Positions 24,425-28,936 of a stretch of DNA of 64,000 nucleotides are shown in pieces. Within the stretch, counting starts at the first letter, position 1; each line of letters begins with the position of its first letter. A program made the position numbers and the translations under genes. Location of the stretch: the sequence record PQ567651.1; one strand, given 5' to 3'. Under the pieces are notes generated by a model. The model made no database searches. It saw nothing but the letters and a program-made list of their open reading frames with translations, and was not told the origin of the DNA. The DNA comes from Escherichia phage cardinal.

Positions 24425-24484
24425 GGCGGGAAACCATTTCCCGCCCTATGTGATACATCTTATCAGATTAAAAAACGTTGTCAA
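24425..24484 (-). promoter_or_regulatory. promoter + 5' stem-loop cassette
   Basis: TTGACA-N16-TAAGAT then gtatcacatag-GGCGGGAAATGGTTTCCCGCC. Confidence 0.65.
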
Positions 24485-24503
24485 GAATATTTTTTAGATA
24501 ATT

Positions 24504-24785
24504 TTAACTATATGATCCACATTGTTCGCAGTAGTGATCATCGTCGCCATCAGCTACCTGGCTGATAAAGTGATCTACTTTTGCTTTTAGGTTATTATAA
24601 TTGTTTTCTACTTCCTTTAATCGCTCCTGATAGTAGCCCAGGGCTTTAATATACGCCGCCTCTTCTGTTTTTTCACGCATGGCTAAATTCATGCCGCGCG
24701 TATCATCATACAGCCAAAAGCCATCGGTACATTCACTCATTGAAAGGGTAGGGCTTAACTCTTTATGATTAATTACCTTGCTCAT
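24504..24785 (-). CDS. hypothetical protein
   Basis: ORF; C-terminal CEQCG motif; start uncertain (24785 or 24818). Confidence 0.45.
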   Translation of the reverse strand: MSKVINHKELSPTLSMSECTDGFWLYDDTRGMNLAMREKTEEAAYIKALGYYQERLKEVENNYNNLKAKVDHFISQVADGDDDHYCEQCGSYS

Positions 24786-25169
24786 AGTGTGCGCCTTATA
24801 GAATGATTGAAACAACAATTGCTACAGTGATCCACACTGGAACGGCTAACAAAATAGCGTTAATCGTTCCAACCGTCAAGCTGTTTTCTTTCTTGATCAT
24901 CGTTATCAACCTTTTATAAGTAATGTTATTGTGACGGTGGATTGTGGAGATCCTCACCTTTGCCCGTCCTGCATTGCGCCCTCCTTTTGTTTATTGTCGT
25001 TGTGCCTCGCCCCCCTCGACAAGATGAATAATACGCTACCAGGTGAGGAACGTCAACCCCTTTTTTAATCTTTTTTTCATTTCTTTTTTTTGCTTGCTAT
25101 CTATAAAGGAAAGGGCTATTATCTTTCTACCACGCCAACCAGGGCGCACATCAAAGAAAGGGCGATACC

Positions 25170-25436
25170 ATGACAAATACTACTTTACACCTCATGCACT
25201 CATTAGGCTGGCAAGGCGGCACGGTGCACCAGGTAGCAAGCGCAACGGGCTTAAAGGTTGAAACCGTTCTCAACCTGGGCGATCATAAGGTGGAAGAAAT
25301 AGATCATTTTGATACGTTCGCAAATGGTTATCTATGGGCTTGCAGTGGCGGCGGGGAAAGCAAGATCCCACCAGGGGCGCGGGGTGATATATATTTTTGG
25401 TTAGGTGTCCTATCCTGGCAAGAAAACAAAAAATAA
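25170..25436 (+). CDS. hypothetical protein
   Basis: 88-aa ORF with AAAGAAAGGG RBS; TTGCTA-N17-TATTAT upstream. Confidence 0.45.
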   Translation: MTNTTLHLMHSLGWQGGTVHQVASATGLKVETVLNLGDHKVEEIDHFDTFANGYLWACSGGGESKIPPGARGDIYFWLGVLSWQENKK

Positions 25437-25437
25437 T

Positions 25438-25472
25438 ATTGACAAGCCCAGGGATCGGGCTTATACTGTTTT
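25438..25472 (+). promoter_or_regulatory. sigma70-like promoter with palindrome in spacer
   Basis: TTGACA-agcccagggatcgggct-TATACT; spacer is an inverted repeat. Confidence 0.55.
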
Positions 25473-25586
25473 ACATACAGAAGAGGAAGCGCCACCCCCA
25501 CGGCGTAAAGGCGGGGCTAACATACCAGGGCACTACTGGTTGGAAGGTTGATCGCTGGTACAACGTATTTACAAAGGAGGTTAGCA

Positions 25587-26180
25587 ATGAAAAAAGTTTT
25601 TGGAGTAGGCATTAACGATAGTGCAAAGCCGATCAAAGGTTGTCGATTCTATGCAACATGGCGCAACATGTTACAACGTTGTTATAGTGAATCATATCAG
25701 GACAAAAGGCCATCTTATAAAGGTTGTAGTGTTTGTGATGAATGGTTGACGTTTAGCACTTTTCGTGCTTGGATGGAACAGCAGGATCACCAGGGAAAAC
25801 AATTAGATAAAGATATAATAACACCGGGTAATAAACTCTATTGTCCTGATCGTTGCGTATTTGTAACGCAAGAAATGAATAGTTTGTTAACAGTTACAAA
25901 GAGTAACAAAGGGGATCATCCTTTGGGTGTTTCATTTTTGAATCATAAACCATTGCCGCGCCCTTATTTAGCAACAATACGTTATAATAACGTAGTGGAA
26001 AGATTAGGGTACTATGTAGATCCTTTATCCGCTCATTTGGCCTGGAATAGGCGCAAACGTGAAATAATCATAGAGATTATTAGTAATGAAACGGATTCAA
26101 GGATCGCCGCTGGCTTGGCTTTACGTGTTGACGCTCTCGATCTGGCTTATGAAAATAAAGCGGAAATAACTTGCTTATGA
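25587..26180 (+). CDS. putative homing-endonuclease-like protein with AP2-type DNA-binding domain
   Basis: N-terminal YATWRNMLQRCY...CDEWLTFSTFRAWM and AP2-like YLATIRYNNVVERLGYYVDPLSAHLAWN; AAAGGAGG RBS. Confidence 0.4.
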   Translation: MKKVFGVGINDSAKPIKGCRFYATWRNMLQRCYSESYQDKRPSYKGCSVCDEWLTFSTFRAWMEQQDHQGKQLDKDIITPGNKLYCPDRCVFVTQEMNSLLTVTKSNKGDHPLGVSFLNHKPLPRPYLATIRYNNVVERLGYYVDPLSAHLAWNRRKREIIIEIISNETDSRIAAGLALRVDALDLAYENKAEITCL

Positions 26181-26184
26181 CGCT

Positions 26185-26217
26185 TGACAAGCGCCCGACA
26201 AGGGCGCATAATCTCTT
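26185..26217 (+). promoter_or_regulatory. sigma70-like promoter with palindrome in spacer
   Basis: TTGACA-agcgcccgacaagggcg-CATAAT; gcgccc...gggcgc inverted repeat. Confidence 0.5.
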
Positions 26218-26435
26218 ACATAGACAGGAACGCCTACCAATGGCGCTAAACTTGGTGATGATAGCCGCAGGGCATCGACAGCTATAATCGCCGGTAGCTC
26301 GTCTAAAATAAATTTGTAAAGAAATGTAAAGATAAAAATAATCGCTTGCTTTTGTTGTTGGTTATGCTATTCTTATTGTATGGCGAGGGGACACGGGAGC
26401 GCGAGACAAACACCGCCCCTGCGCGTTATTTTCTA

Positions 26436-26550
26436 AATGAGAAAATTCTCATTTGCTAATGATTCTCATTCTCTTACTGAGAATGATTATCACTTACATA
26501 ATTAAATGATAATGATTCTCATTTACAAATGAGAATGATTATCATACGCA
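26436..26550. promoter_or_regulatory. cluster of Fur-box-like palindromes
   Basis: aaatgagaaaattctcattt, aatgattctcattctc, gagaatgattatcac, gataatgattctcattta, gagaatgattatcatacg. Confidence 0.45.
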
Positions 26551-26564
26551 TACCTATAAAAACA

Positions 26565-26775
26565 CGAAATTGAACTTTTCATTTTTGATTTTTCTACGGA
26601 AAAAGGCAAAAAAACTTTAAATAAACTGGGGAATTTTTAAAAAATTGAAGTTTTCATTTTCAAAATCTGGATAGAAATACGTACAAAAACTTTAAATAAT
26701 TTTGACCAAACTTGAACTTTTCATTTTCAAAATTTGTACCCAAAAATCTGTAAAAACTTTAAATAATTTTGTACT
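26565..26775. repeat. three ~65-bp imperfect direct repeats
   Basis: units start aaattgaa(c/g)ttttcatttt... and end ...aaaaactttaaataa at about 26568, 26642, 26711. Confidence 0.8.
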
Positions 26776-27082
26776 TTTTATAAAAATGATTTTACTGTTC
26801 TGTTATAAGTAGTAGTTAAGAGATAGTATGCCTTTTAAAGATCAGATACCATAGTCAAACAAACAAATTAAATACTTTATTAACAGAGTACAGAATAATA
26901 TTTACTCTGGATATATTATTCAGAGGGTGGATTTCCGTACATGAAACCCACACCCCTTTTTATAAAAATAAAAATTTTCAAAATATCAGTAAATATCAGA
27001 TTGTGCTTTTAGATAAACAGCAAGGTCTGTATGCCATTTTCCTAAAAGATTTTGTCCTTTCCAACAGTCCTTATTTTCCACA

Positions 27083-27538
27083 TCACGATCCCACATTCCC
27101 ATTTTTGATACCATAAATAGAATCATAAGGGCTTGCCTCTACGAACTCCTTATCTGCGTAAGCGATAAGTTTATTTTTGAGATCTTCATTTTGTGTGTAT
27201 TTAAGATACAAACCACGTTTGACAATCTTCTCCCGTAAAGAAGTCCAGGTATCTTCATCATAATCTTTAACTAATCTGCCTAGACGTTTATAATATGCTT
27301 GTTCTTTTTCTCCTGTATATCTTAGATCTCCGGTTAAAATAGAAGATGCAATATTGTAATCATAAAACAAACATGCTTTTCTCCACATCATATATTGTTC
27401 CACACAAGTAAATTCGACAGAACTTGTGATAGAATTATTATACTTGGGAGCTAAAGGTTCAATAAAAGATGATAGATACCAGTTGCTAAATTCATCTTTT
27501 GCCGAGAAAAAGAACACATACTTGTCAGTAATCCGCAT
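27083..27538 (-). CDS. NADAR (YbiA-like) domain protein
   Basis: YVFFFSAKDEFSNWYLS, FTCVEQYMMWRKACLF, EFVEASPYDSIYGIKNG align with E. coli YbiA motifs. Confidence 0.75.
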   Translation of the reverse strand: MRITDKYVFFFSAKDEFSNWYLSSFIEPLAPKYNNSITSSVEFTCVEQYMMWRKACLFYDYNIASSILTGDLRYTGEKEQAYYKRLGRLVKDYDEDTWTSLREKIVKRGLYLKYTQNEDLKNKLIAYADKEFVEASPYDSIYGIKNGNVGS

Positions 27539-28936
27539 TTACACCTCCTTATTGTATACTAATTTGCCACCATATTGTGTAACAATTTTTTGAAGATTTT
27601 CCAAATCAGAAACACTTACTGTTTCTGTATGACCATCTTTCAACTCTCTTGCCGTTAAAATACCAGTTTTTAATTTTTTCTTTATAGCTCTTTCAGCAGC
27701 CTTACATTGTTTCACTGTGCTAAAATCATATAAACAAATACGCTCCATAGGAAACATATTACAGCTATTTTGACGTTTTAATCGACTATCACTATTTTTA
27801 GCTATACCAAACTTAAGAGCAACTATAATATTATCATCCTTAACAATATTAATATATAACTGCTGCTGACTATGACCAGCACACATAGGACAACCTCGAC
27901 CGTGGCTTAATAAGGCATTAGCCCTCCCTGTCTGTTCCCCATGCACAAGACAAAGATATTTAAACTTACCGTGACTTCTAGACGGTTTACCGATCCAACC
28001 TACCCAGACATACCCTTTCCCTTCTACTTCCTTTTTTACCCTGTAGGTAATCTGATTTTCTGTATAGTGATAACTAGTTGCACAGCGGCAAGGGATACTT
28101 CCTTGTTTTAGGGGCCACCCTTTAGAGTAAAATTTACCATCGCAAACACCTGCTTGAACATATTCATCATGGGAGCAAACAGGACACTCAACCATCCATA
28201 CTGCATCACGCTTGTTACGTTTCCCTGTATTGGTGAAGATAGTGCCTTCCTTAAATTTCCCTGTAGAAAAGAAATCTGCAATATGTTGATCGTCGGACAT
28301 TGTTAGTGCCTTCCTTGTATTCTCATACCTACATAAAGGACAACCATAACCACGTTTAAAATTGTTAATACTTGTAGTATCCCATTTATAACCACAGTGA
28401 CACAACAAATCAAGTTTTGTTTTATGTCCTTTCCATTTTCCAACGTACCCTAACACCTGATACCCCTTCTTCTGTGCTATCTCTTCCAAGATCGGTAATT
28501 CTGTTTCCCATGCTAACGGTTTATTACTTGCACATGCCGGACAACCACGTCCATTCCTAAAATCAATAATGTTTGTGGTGTTCCACTCTCCATGTTTAGG
28601 GCAAATTATGCGAATTTTTGTTCGCACACCTCGCCACTCCTCGGCAAGACCTATAAAAGTAAACCCTCTTTCTTTAGCAATATCAACAAGGGAGATACAT
28701 TCCTTTTCTTCTGTTACTTTTCTATGACCATTGCAATCGGAGCAACATTTACCGCCTTTAGTTTTAAATACATTGATTATGGTACTTTCCCACTCTCCAT
28801 GATCAGAGCAAGATAGCTTAAGCCTAGTCCTGCTACCTTTCCATTCACCAACATAACCCAAGATTTGAATATTGTGATTTTTAGCAAGGGGTATTAATTC
28901 TTCTTTATATTGTTCCCATGATTTTAGTGCTACCAT
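27539..28936 (-). CDS. Cys/His-rich triple-repeat protein with C-terminal GIY-YIG-like (T5orf172-type) domain
   Basis: three modules of form GYVGxWKG..TKL.L.C..HGEW.T..I..F..G.GCP.C; C-terminal LYINIVKDDNIIVALKFGIAKNSDSRLKRQ. Confidence 0.45.
   Translation of the reverse strand: MVALKSWEQYKEELIPLAKNHNIQILGYVGEWKGSRTRLKLSCSDHGEWESTIINVFKTKGGKCCSDCNGHRKVTEEKECISLVDIAKERGFTFIGLAEEWRGVRTKIRIICPKHGEWNTTNIIDFRNGRGCPACASNKPLAWETELPILEEIAQKKGYQVLGYVGKWKGHKTKLDLLCHCGYKWDTTSINNFKRGYGCPLCRYENTRKALTMSDDQHIADFFSTGKFKEGTIFTNTGKRNKRDAVWMVECPVCSHDEYVQAGVCDGKFYSKGWPLKQGSIPCRCATSYHYTENQITYRVKKEVEGKGYVWVGWIGKPSRSHGKFKYLCLVHGEQTGRANALLSHGRGCPMCAGHSQQQLYINIVKDDNIIVALKFGIAKNSDSRLKRQNSCNMFPMERICLYDFSTVKQCKAAERAIKKKLKTGILTARELKDGHTETVSVSDLENLQKIVTQYGGKLVYNKEV

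What the first reader, a model, noticed from the sequence alone, without database searches (positions are those of the whole stretch)
25587..26180. Free-standing AP2-domain homing-endonuclease-like gene between two palindrome/repeat regions
The protein combines an N-terminal Cys/Trp-rich segment (YATWRNMLQRCY...CDEWLTFSTFRAWM) with an AP2-like DNA-binding segment, an arrangement seen in phage HNH/AP2 homing endonucleases. It is the only rightward gene in the GC-rich block and is flanked by promoters with palindromic spacers, so it may be a mobile insertion.
Basis: partly seen in the sequence, partly recalled or inferred. Interest (0 to 1): 0.45.

Follow-up and report, generated by a model that had tools for sequence, protein, structure and literature searches.

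The report
Mobile AP2-type homing endonuclease gene cassette
This is an ordinary selfish gene of a recently named phage family (IPA-HNH homing endonucleases) that has inserted, with its own promoter, into a highly conserved non-coding site of a phi92-like coliphage; the only unusual points are that its nuclease motif has no histidine and that it always lands at the same nucleotide.

Summary
The ORF at 25587-26180 (+) is real: 197 aa, AAGGAGG ribosome-binding site, purifying selection (dN/dS 0.12-0.18). The window is a phi92-like (Justusliebigvirus) coliphage. phi92 and about 140 relatives lack the gene. Their sequence runs straight across a ~726-bp indel (window 25561-26286). Nine of nine close homologues (at least 63% aa identity) sit at the same point, 27-38 nt behind an ~80-nt GC-rich non-coding element. 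They lie in at least four backgrounds: phi92-like, Mydovirus, Certrevirus-like, and the unplaced short contig L057. Cassette and flank identities disagree, which indicates horizontal transfer. One phage (P7_Pc) keeps only a remnant.

This is a new member of a known kind. Nuclease activity and the target site are inferred, not shown.

The parts
25439..25467 (+). Promoter P1 (TTGACA-17-TATACT). Its spacer is the palindrome AAGCCC..GGGCTT. It is native to the phage and present in gene-less relatives.
   Evidence: 11/12 match, and the hairpin is also flagged as terminator-like; and alignments show it in phi92 and other genera with different but still palindromic spacers.
25482..25560 (+). Conserved ~80-nt GC-rich non-coding element. 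It is native and forms the left flank of the insertion. It ends in ATCGCTGGTA (25551-25560), the left copy of the short direct repeat.
   Evidence: Covariance model R1 hit at E 6e-22. More than 30 nt are invariant across 9 genera. 245 phage records carry the element. No Rfam family matches.
25561..26286 (+). DNA present in the window but absent from phi92-type genomes. This is the mobile cassette: 5' UTR, ORF, its own promoter and a leader. The boundaries are ambiguous by about 10 nt because of the flanking repeat.
   Evidence: window 24438-25560 equals phi92 L001 2948-4058, and window 26287-27901 equals L001 4049-5664. Searches give the junction alignments.
25574..25580 (+). Ribosome-binding site AAGGAGG, 6 nt before the ATG.
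   Evidence: Read directly.
25587..26180 (+). The gene: a 197-aa IPA-HNH-type homing-endonuclease-like protein.
   Evidence: dN/dS is 0.18 against Ro1 and 0.12 against L005.
25797..25889 (+). Codons 71-101: the predicted beta - omega-loop - beta - alpha (His-Me-finger-like) core. It holds the near-invariant residues D74, K75, D76, N82, Y85, C90 and N98, and no His.
25920..26087 (+). Codons 112-167: the AP2-like DNA-binding domain (three strands and a helix). A C-terminal helix follows at codons 171-189.
26184..26212 (+). Promoter P2 (TTGACA-17-CATAAT) with the palindromic spacer GCGCCC..GGGCGC. It is carried by the cassette, 4 nt after the stop codon.
   Evidence: 11/12. It is present in all occupied alleles and in the P7_Pc remnant, and absent from empty sites.
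26213..26296 (+). The cassette's own leader. It ends in ATCGCCGGTA (26287-26296), the right copy of the direct repeat. It resembles the native element only weakly.
   Evidence: alignment. Covariance model hits are weak and seen only in relatives (E 0.88 in Ro1, 0.15 in L057), with none in the window. The minimum-free-energy fold has a similar layout but z is -0.9.
26297..26345 (+). Resumption of native sequence (GCTCGTCTAAAAT..TTTGTAAAGAAATGTAAAGA). This is the right flank of the insertion.

Best explanation
The gene is a free-standing homing endonuclease gene of the IPA-HNH class. It is carried on a ~730-bp cassette made of a short 5' UTR with a strong ribosome-binding site, the ORF, a sigma70-type promoter with a palindromic spacer, and an ~85-nt leader.

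The cassette sits immediately 3' of a very conserved ~80-nt GC-rich non-coding element. That element lies behind promoter P1 and upstream of an AT-rich, repeat-laden, origin-like region.

Proposed mechanism (inferred, not shown). The gene is transcribed from P1 through the conserved element. The C-terminal AP2 domain binds the GC-rich target around ..GGAAGGTKGATCGCCGG|TAGCTCG.. in a co-infecting genome that lacks the cassette. The N-terminal beta-beta-alpha-metal domain then cuts nearby. In that domain, D74 or D76 together with N98 would hold the metal, and Y85 in the omega-loop (as in PacI) or K75 would replace the usual His general base. Recombinational repair from the cassette-bearing genome copies the cassette into the cut genome. 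The cassette's own promoter P2 and leader restore promoter-proximal transcription into the downstream region, which limits the cost to the phage.

Shown here: the gene is intact and under purifying selection. It is absent at this exact site from most relatives. It occupies the same site in several genera. It has moved horizontally. It decays to a remnant in one phage. It is homologous to ICP1 Gp59. It has an AP2-like fold.

Inferred only: nuclease activity, the catalytic residues, the target sequence and the role of P2.
For: Indel against phi92: the flanks are 98% identical up to 25560 and from 26287 onward. 139 phage records carry the site uninterrupted. Only Ro1 has the gene at the DNA level.

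Same site: all nine close homologues lie 27-38 nt behind the conserved element, with covariance model E-values from 4e-21 to 3e-25. These are the window, L004, Ro1, L005 and L057-L061. Homologues at 47% identity or less have no such element.

Horizontal transfer: L058 flanks are 96-98% identical to Ro1 and Mydo, but its cassette is only 83% identical to Ro1 and 92% identical to L005, whose flanks do not align. Mydo has a clean 731-bp gap at the site.

Decay: P7_Pc retains the element, the last 25 codons (92% aa identity), P2 and the leader.

Family: tblastn gives E 3e-17 to the ICP1 locus annotated 'previously GP59', named as an IPA-HNH homing endonuclease gene in PMC10448857. phrog_953 'HNH endonuclease' scores 2e-81.

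Domain swapping: Bacillus phage Nemo_162 joins the same N-domain to an I-HmuI NUMOD-like domain and sits inside a split DNA polymerase gene. Vibrio phage 70E35-3 has a copy between its primase and polymerase genes.

Active-site-like conservation in 219 sequences: D74 218, K75 219, D76 219, Y85 218, N98 219.

Selection: dN/dS is 0.12-0.18.
Against: No Pfam or NCBIfam nuclease profile matches. The residue that defines His-Me nucleases is absent. My hhalign comparisons with an I-HmuI/HNH_3 alignment gave probability below 1%.

No member of the IPA-HNH family has published cleavage data that I could find.

The cassette is flanked by an imperfect 9-10-nt direct repeat. Homing itself does not create such a repeat, but it would allow precise deletion. 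The right junction of the window allele still carries 15 nt identical to the empty site (ATCGCCGGTAGCTCG), so self-immunity is unexplained unless recognition extends further left.
Confidence: 0.7

Rival explanations
1. A domesticated, nuclease-dead DNA-binding protein. On this view the AP2 domain and the degenerate HNH-like domain bind the GC-rich element, the palindromic promoters or the neighbouring origin-like repeats. The protein would regulate transcription or replication, and the cassette would spread only by ordinary recombination.
For: No catalytic His occurs anywhere in the family. No nuclease profile matches. The gene always lies beside a promoter, a conserved element and origin-like repeats. 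Purifying selection would also fit a host-beneficial function. AP2 domains derived from homing endonuclease genes do act as repressors elsewhere (CasPRs, bioRxiv 10.64898/2026.02.23.707548; MH1 of Smad is a dead His-Me finger, PMC5714182).
Against: The gene is missing from about 140 close relatives that keep the site intact, so it is dispensable. Cassette and flank phylogenies disagree and the insertion point is the same in several genera, which is the signature of an active homing element. D74, K75, D76, Y85 and N98 are near-invariant at the positions where a beta-beta-alpha-metal site needs ligands. PacI shows that a His-less site can be active. The same N-domain sits in the nuclease slot of intron-like insertions in polymerase genes.
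Confidence: 0.15
2. An ancestral gene of rV5-like phages that has been lost repeatedly by precise deletion between the 9-10-nt direct repeats ATCGCYGGTA. On this view it is not a mobile element.
For: The cassette is bounded by an imperfect direct repeat. The phi92-type sequence is exactly what recombination between the repeats would leave. P7_Pc shows that deletions do occur here.
Against: The uninterrupted element is found in at least 9 genera with the same junction. The cassette in a Mydovirus background (L058) is 92% identical to one in a Certrevirus-like background whose flanks do not align. It is only 83% identical to the cassette of Ro1, whose flanks are 96-97% identical to L058. Vertical descent cannot give that pattern. 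The window cassette is 87% identical to Ro1 across subfamilies that share no other blastn-detectable DNA nearby.
Confidence: 0.05
3. An inter-phage competition nuclease rather than a homing enzyme in the strict sense. It would cut the conserved element next to the origin-like region of co-infecting related phages to exclude them, with cassette spread as a by-product.
For: The target lies in a sequence shared by hundreds of rV5-like phages next to an origin-like repeat region. A second nuclease-type gene (CapR x5 + T5orf172) lies 1.3 kb away on the other side of the repeats. The literature on ICP1 describes related nucleases used in such conflicts (PMC10448857).
Against: Sequence data cannot distinguish this from homing, because the same cleavage gives both outcomes. 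There is no direct evidence of exclusion.
Confidence: 0.1

Closest known systems
IPA-HNH homing endonuclease genes (ICP1 Gp59, Gp115/116, Gp209; Barth, Dunham & Seed 2023, PMC10448857)
   Same: Sequence homology to Gp59 (tblastn E 3e-17, 36% identity over residues 24-184). The same architecture: a divergent HNH-3-like N-domain that Pfam does not detect, followed by AP2. Free-standing, sporadic, and located at a boundary of genetic exchange.
   Different: It is shorter than Gp59 because it lacks the N-terminal extension. It lies in a non-coding element beside an origin-like region rather than next to polymerase, ribonucleotide reductase or terminase genes. It carries its own downstream promoter. 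The paper does not mention phi92/rV5-like phages in its main text (its supplementary tables were not checked), nor the absence of the catalytic His.
I-HmuI / HNH_3 homing endonucleases (PDB 1u3e; His-Me group 2, some of which carry AP2; Magnani et al. 2004 as cited in PMC5714182)
   Same: Predicted beta - omega-loop - beta - alpha layout at almost the same residue numbers. By eye, the GNK and (W/F)VTQxxN motifs line up, and Asp and Asn sit at the metal-ligand positions. Nuclease plus DNA-binding modules are arranged the same way. One relative even carries the I-HmuI NUMOD-like domain.
   Different: DHKD in I-HmuI is DKD here, so there is no general-base His. No Pfam HNH_3 hit and no hhalign match. 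An extra Cys/Trp-rich helical subdomain precedes the core.
Restriction endonuclease PacI (PDB 3m7k/3ldy; His-Me group 20)
   Same: It is the best structural match of the N-domain. It is a His-Me finger without His. It uses Asp and Asn as metal ligands and a Tyr in the omega-loop as general base, and this family has an invariant Tyr (Y85) in the omega-loop. Both have Cys-rich, zinc-type stabilisation.
Free-standing homing endonuclease genes of T4-type phages (seg and mob genes)
   Same: Intergenic and free-standing, with presence/absence polymorphism among relatives and spread by double-strand-break repair in mixed infections (general knowledge; reviewed in papers cited).
   Different: Different nuclease families (GIY-YIG, canonical HNH). 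Those genes usually target a neighbouring protein-coding gene, whereas here the flank is a non-coding element.

Membership tests
IPA-HNH homing endonuclease genes (Barth et al. 2023) | Significant sequence similarity to the founders ICP1 Gp59, Gp115-116 or Gp209 | tested here: met
   tblastn E 3e-17 to ICP1 25085-25537, which is the CDS 'previously called GP59'. The alignment shows shared invariant residues R31, W53, L73-D76, N82, Y85, C90 and N98.
IPA-HNH homing endonuclease genes (Barth et al. 2023) | N-terminal domain related to HNH-3 but not detected by the Pfam HNH_3 profile | tested here: met
   No Pfam hit at E up to 10. No HNH family appears among 27 relatives. The PHROGs families it matches are annotated as HNH endonuclease.
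IPA-HNH homing endonuclease genes (Barth et al. 2023) | C-terminal AP2 DNA-binding domain | tested here: met
IPA-HNH homing endonuclease genes (Barth et al. 2023) | Endonuclease and homing activity | not testable with these tools
   I found no biochemical data for any member. Only comparative evidence of mobility is available.
Canonical HNH / His-Me finger nucleases (HNH_3, I-HmuI type) | Beta-hairpin plus alpha-helix (beta-beta-alpha-metal) core | tested here: inconclusive
Canonical HNH / His-Me finger nucleases (HNH_3, I-HmuI type) | General-base His at the end of the first strand | tested here: not met
   That position is Lys in 219 of 219 sequences, and no conserved His exists in the N-domain. 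I-HmuI relatives have an invariant H75.
Canonical HNH / His-Me finger nucleases (HNH_3, I-HmuI type) | Asp/Asn (or His) metal ligands in the strand and helix | tested here: met
   D74 218/219, D76 219/219, N98 219/219. The assignment to ligand positions is by motif and predicted secondary structure only.
Canonical HNH / His-Me finger nucleases (HNH_3, I-HmuI type) | Profile similarity to HNH families | tested here: not met
   hhalign against a 28- and a 120-sequence I-HmuI/HNH_3 alignment gave probability 0.1-0.3%. Barth et al. report HHsearch hits, but I could not reproduce that search.
PacI-like His-less His-Me nucleases (group 20 of PMC5714182) | Structural similarity to PacI | tested here: inconclusive
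PacI-like His-less His-Me nucleases (group 20 of PMC5714182) | Tyr in the omega-loop acting in place of His | tested here: inconclusive
   Y85 lies between the two strands and is Tyr in 218/219 sequences. Its three-dimensional equivalence to the PacI Tyr was not checked because no coordinates were available to me.
PacI-like His-less His-Me nucleases (group 20 of PMC5714182) | Cys4 zinc sites | tested here: inconclusive
   Five conserved Cys: C19 212, C32 215, C47 216, C50 205, C90 219 of 219. Their geometry was not examined.
AP2/ERF DNA-binding domain (PF00847) | Three-stranded sheet packed on a helix, with a profile match | tested here: met
   The fold is met. The sequence profile is only marginal for this protein.
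Homing endonuclease gene (functional definition) | Presence/absence polymorphism at one site among close relatives, with horizontal spread | tested here: met
Homing endonuclease gene (functional definition) | The encoded enzyme cleaves the gene-less allele, and the gene is over-transmitted in crosses | not testable with these tools
   This needs biochemistry and phage crosses.

The most novel reading that the evidence does not exclude
The IPA-HNH family holds at least 8000 clusters at 90% identity. It may be a large class of phage homing nucleases that work without the eponymous histidine, using a PacI-like Tyr (Y85) or a Lys (K75) as general base. This particular sub-lineage may be specialised on a previously undescribed, ultra-conserved non-coding element that sits between a strong promoter and an origin-like repeat region in rV5/phi92-like phages. 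The cassette may carry a substitute promoter and leader to replace what it separates from the downstream region.
Probability: 0.35. Interest if true: 0.5.

Novelty: new member of a known kind. Interest (0 to 1): 0.33.

Why it matters
For annotation: the gene should be labelled an IPA-HNH-type (AP2-associated, His-less HNH-like) homing endonuclease gene. Its ~730-bp cassette should be treated as an accessory insertion, not as part of the phi92-like core genome.

For biology, the locus offers a clean natural series: empty site, two cassette subtypes in several genera, and a decayed remnant. That series makes the target and the catalytic residues of an uncharacterised nuclease family directly testable.

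The locus also points to a conserved non-coding element next to a likely replication origin in a phage group used in therapy cocktails. If the enzyme proves active without a histidine, it would extend the PacI exception to thousands of phage proteins.

Tried and rejected
These checks led nowhere or were rejected:

- Pfam and NCBIfam on the protein gave no hits.
- A PDB sequence search with the N-domain profile gave only chance hits, to trypsin, dCK and MAU2.
- Foldseek against PDB with the full model gave nothing significant.
- hhalign against I-HmuI/HNH_3 alignments, both whole and trimmed to the core, was negative. I therefore do not claim demonstrated HNH_3 homology.
- A second big-database search with the N-domain profile was saturated by close family members and could not bridge to canonical HNH.
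- There are no tRNA or tmRNA genes in the window.
- There is no Rfam match for the conserved element, the leaders or an intron, so the group I intron idea is rejected.
- The idea that leader 2 is a structural paralogue of the conserved element is not supported. Covariance model hits were only E 0.88 (Ro1) and 0.15 (L057) with none in the window, and fold energies are unremarkable at z -0.1 to -0.9.
- A transposon origin is rejected. There are no terminal inverted repeats and no transposase, and the flanking repeat is imperfect.
- A host origin is rejected: there is no match in 5,426 E. coli genomes.
- There are no paralogues elsewhere in the 64-kb window.
- IMG/VR added only Ro1 itself as a close relative.

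Full report
**Observation**

ATG is at 25587 and the stop ends at 26180, giving 197 codons, with AAGGAGG six nucleotides upstream. The Cys/Trp-rich N-terminal motifs are present.

Two consensus-quality sigma70-type promoters flank the gene at 25439-25467 and 26184-26212, each matching 11 of 12 positions. Their 17-nt spacers are GC-rich palindromes. In a scan of the whole window for such promoters with a spacer stem of at least 5 pairs, these are the only two whose spacer is a GC-rich palindrome.

The small gene at 25170-25436, the phi92 gp224 homologue, is also rightward. The gene itself is not GC-rich: its GC is 0.384 against 0.374 for the window. Only the two promoter/leader units beside it are GC-rich, at 0.51 and 0.54.

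**Genomic setting**

The window is a phi92-like myophage (Justusliebigvirus, Stephanstirmvirinae). Flanking DNA is 93-98% identical to phi92 and to more than 100 Escherichia phages.

In phi92 the sequence runs straight from window 25560 to window 26287. The two alignments overlap by 10 nt in phi92 because an imperfect repeat bounds the extra DNA: ATCGCTGGTA on the left and ATCGCCGGTA on the right. The window therefore carries about 726 bp that phi92 lacks: a 26-nt UTR, the ORF, promoter P2 and an ~85-nt leader.

At the DNA level only Raoultella phage Ro1 (Mydovirus, Vequintavirinae) has this segment, at 87% identity, where the gene is annotated "HNH endonuclease". A metagenomic contig of the same phage type (L004) carries a 99% identical gene.

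**The site**

The DNA just left of the insertion (25482-25560) is an ~80-nt GC-rich non-coding element. It lies behind promoter P1 and is strikingly conserved. 245 phage records match the region, and 139 of them carry it uninterrupted.

In an alignment of nine genera (phi92, phAPEC8, Klebsiella 05F01, phiTE, W70, Mydo, CR8, PVP-SE1, Acinetobacter ABPH49), more than 30 consecutive positions are invariant, while the promoter spacer and one internal hairpin vary with pairing kept. The invariant stretch reads CGCCA-CCCCACGGCG-AAAGGCGGGGCTAAC, followed later by GGAAGGT..ATCGCCGG.

The element matches no Rfam family. Its folding energy is not unusual, and only two base pairs show compensatory change. 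I therefore call it a conserved element, either RNA or a DNA-level site, and not a demonstrated structured RNA.

Downstream lie a third promoter-like sequence and a 0.22-0.26 GC region. That region contains TGAGAATGATTATCA repeats in both orientations and three ~70-nt tandem repeats. This looks like a replication origin, but that is inference only.

**Mobility**

I built a covariance model of the element and searched the loci of all close homologues I could fetch. In nine of nine cases (at least 63% aa identity: the window, L004, Ro1, L005, L057-L061), the element ends 27-38 nt before the start codon. E-values run from 4e-21 to 3e-25. Six homologues at 47% identity or less have no such element.

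The element upstream of each copy is the native variant of its own background. The backgrounds are phi92-type, Mydo-type, CR8-type and a fourth type, while the cassettes fall into two subtypes:

- Subtype A: the window, Ro1 and L057.
- Subtype B: L005 and L058-L061.

Each subtype has its own UTR, its own promoter with a palindromic spacer and its own leader.

The L058 comparison is the clearest case.

- Its flanks are 96-98% identical to Ro1 and to Proteus phage Mydo.
- Mydo has a clean 731-bp gap at the site.
- The L058 cassette is only 83% identical to that of Ro1.
- The L058 cassette is 92% identical to that of L005, whose flanks do not align with L058 at all.

This discordance cannot come from vertical descent with loss. 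It shows repeated horizontal arrival at one nucleotide position.

Pectobacterium phage P7_Pc keeps the element, then the last 25 codons of the gene (92% aa identity), P2 and the leader. That is a decayed copy.

The gene is under purifying selection, with dN/dS 0.18 against Ro1 and 0.12 against L005. The cassette has no counterpart in E. coli genomes. There is no paralogue elsewhere in the window.

**The protein**

Pfam and NCBIfam give nothing. PHROGs gives phrog_953 "HNH endonuclease" at 2e-81, plus four further HNH-annotated families and one family (phrog_8790) annotated "restriction endonuclease".

The family is very large. There were 902 hits with the single sequence, and at least 7998 clusters at 90% identity with an N-domain profile. 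Nearly all are 190-220 aa, and some carry a Pfam AP2 hit.

tblastn finds 1579 phage records, rich in Vibrio, Rheinheimera and Pseudomonas phages. One hit is the ICP1 gene formerly called gp59.

Barth, Dunham and Seed (PMC10448857) named Gp59, Gp115/116 and Gp209 "IPA-HNH" homing endonuclease genes. [quoted passage not shown] They find these genes abundant in Barbaviruses and Flaumdraviruses and located at boundaries of genetic exchange. The window gene is therefore a member of a family described in 2023. That paper reports no cleavage assays and does not mention histidine.

**AP2 domain**

An AlphaFold2 model from a 27-sequence alignment has pLDDT 91. It shows three strands (115-117, 127-133, 136-143) and a long helix (146-167), followed by another helix (171-189).

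**Nuclease-like domain**

The model places strand 71-74 (QLDK), a 16-residue loop, strand 91-94 and helix 95-101. This is the beta - omega-loop - beta - alpha order of a His-Me finger, at nearly the same residue numbers as in I-HmuI.

By eye, I-HmuI VVDHKDGNK...NLRWVTQKIN lines up with QLDKD...GNK...RCVFVTQEMN. The His is simply missing (I-HmuI sequence confirmed as P0215).

In 219 family sequences, including ICP1 Gp59 and Bacillus and Vibrio phage members, the counts are as follows:

| Residue | Count of 219 |
|---|---|
| D74 | 218 |
| K75 | 219 |
| D76 | 219 |
| N82 | 216 |
| Y85 | 218 |
| C90 | 219 |
| N98 | 219 |
| C19 / C32 / C47 / C50 | 212 / 215 / 216 / 205 |

There is no conserved His in the domain.

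My profile-profile comparisons with I-HmuI/HNH_3 alignments were negative. The PDB sequence search was also negative.

PacI is the textbook His-Me nuclease without His. Its metal is held by an Asp and an Asn, and a Tyr in the omega-loop is positioned as general base. It also has Cys4 zinc sites (PMC5714182 and PMC4081073). The family's invariant D, N and omega-loop Y fit that pattern, but the structural match is weak. I rate PacI-like chemistry as plausible and not shown.

Independent support that this domain is the catalytic module comes from architecture. Bacillus phage Nemo_162 joins the domain to an I-HmuI NUMOD-like DNA-binding domain (Pfam 3.5e-12) and sits between two halves of a DNA polymerase gene. 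A Vibrio phage copy sits between the primase and polymerase genes.

**Mechanism proposed**

The following steps are all inferred.

1. P1 transcribes through the conserved element into the gene.
2. The AP2 domain binds the GC-rich target of a cassette-less co-infecting genome.
3. The N-domain cuts nearby.
4. Repair from the cassette-bearing genome copies the cassette.
5. P2 and its leader keep the downstream, origin-like region promoter-proximal.

The occupied alleles differ from the empty site at the left junction. The window, Ro1, L057, L058 and L060 have GATCGCTGG|TACAACG. L005, L059 and L061 have ATCGGGGGCACAACG, and in those three the right junction is altered as well. These changes could confer immunity to self-cleavage. 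The window's right junction, however, still has 15 nt of the native site, so the true recognition sequence is open.

**Rivals**

- Domesticated, nuclease-dead regulator (0.15). The missing His fits this. The gene's dispensability and its horizontal, site-specific spread do not.
- Ancestral gene with repeated precise loss (0.05). The cassette/flank discordance contradicts this.
- Competition nuclease (0.10). Sequence data cannot separate this from homing.

**Comparison and novelty**

This is a new member of a known kind. Free-standing HNH-type homing endonuclease genes are common in rV5-like phages; for example, 21 are reported in Pectobacterium phage CB7 (PMC7344957). The IPA-HNH class was defined in 2023, and the Ro1 orthologue is already labelled HNH endonuclease.

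Three things are new here:

- A documented insertion series at one nucleotide of a conserved non-coding element.
- The cassette's own promoter and leader.
- The explicit observation that the whole family lacks the catalytic His and resembles PacI.

Overall interest is modest at 0.33. The most novel reading not excluded is a large His-less nuclease class that targets an undescribed origin-proximal element. I give that reading probability 0.35 and interest 0.5 if true.

Noticed in passing
window 25482-25560 (also L001 3980-4058, L009-L016): An ~80-nt GC-rich non-coding element lies behind a sigma70-like promoter. More than 30 nt are invariant across at least 9 genera of rV5/phi92-like phages, and 245 phage records carry it. 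It matches no Rfam family and is mostly unannotated. Its function is unknown. Folding energy is unremarkable and only two pairs covary.
   Followed up: partly
window 26430-26790: An AT-rich region (GC 0.22-0.26) holds TGAGAATGATTATCA repeats in both orientations (26445-26545) and three ~70-nt tandem repeats (26567-26787). It is conserved in layout in phi92 and L005 and looks like a replication origin or another protein-binding array.
   Followed up: partly
window 27539-28936 (-): A second homing-endonuclease-type gene lies 1.3 kb away on the other side of the repeats. It has five CapR repeats plus a T5orf172 domain and is 464 aa, against 397 aa for phi92 gp222.
   Followed up: partly
window 26346-26436: A third promoter-like sequence (GCTTGC..17..TATGCT) is followed by a GC-rich segment (GGCGAGGGGACACGGGAGCGCGAGACAAACACCGCCCCTGCGCG). 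The same arrangement recurs downstream of the site in Ro1, L005 and L058-L061.
   Followed up: no
window about 24438-24493 versus L001 2624-2948: phi92 gp226 (273 nt) has no counterpart in the window. The join lies in a ~35-nt sequence present on both sides, and a related ~85-nt intergenic repeat occurs elsewhere in phi92 (L001 222-306). Intergenic repeats may mediate gain and loss of small genes here.
   Followed up: no
GenBank MG065639, MG065645, MG065656, MG065689, MG065650 (hits H34-H37, H64): Records named 'Campylobacter phage' A150, A145, C3, A110a and B15 are 97-99% identical to phi92-like coliphage DNA at this locus. The host label looks doubtful.
   Followed up: no
L003 (Pectobacterium phage P7_Pc) 3001-3425 and 3983-4522: Besides the remnant of the gene, a 36%-identical paralogue (orf142, weak AP2 hit) lies about 1 kb downstream on the opposite strand. 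The locus appears to attract members of this family.
   Followed up: partly
window 25444-25462: The palindromic spacer of promoter P1 is also scored as an intrinsic-terminator-like hairpin on both strands. The same sequence may end the gp224-homologue transcript and start the next one.
   Followed up: no
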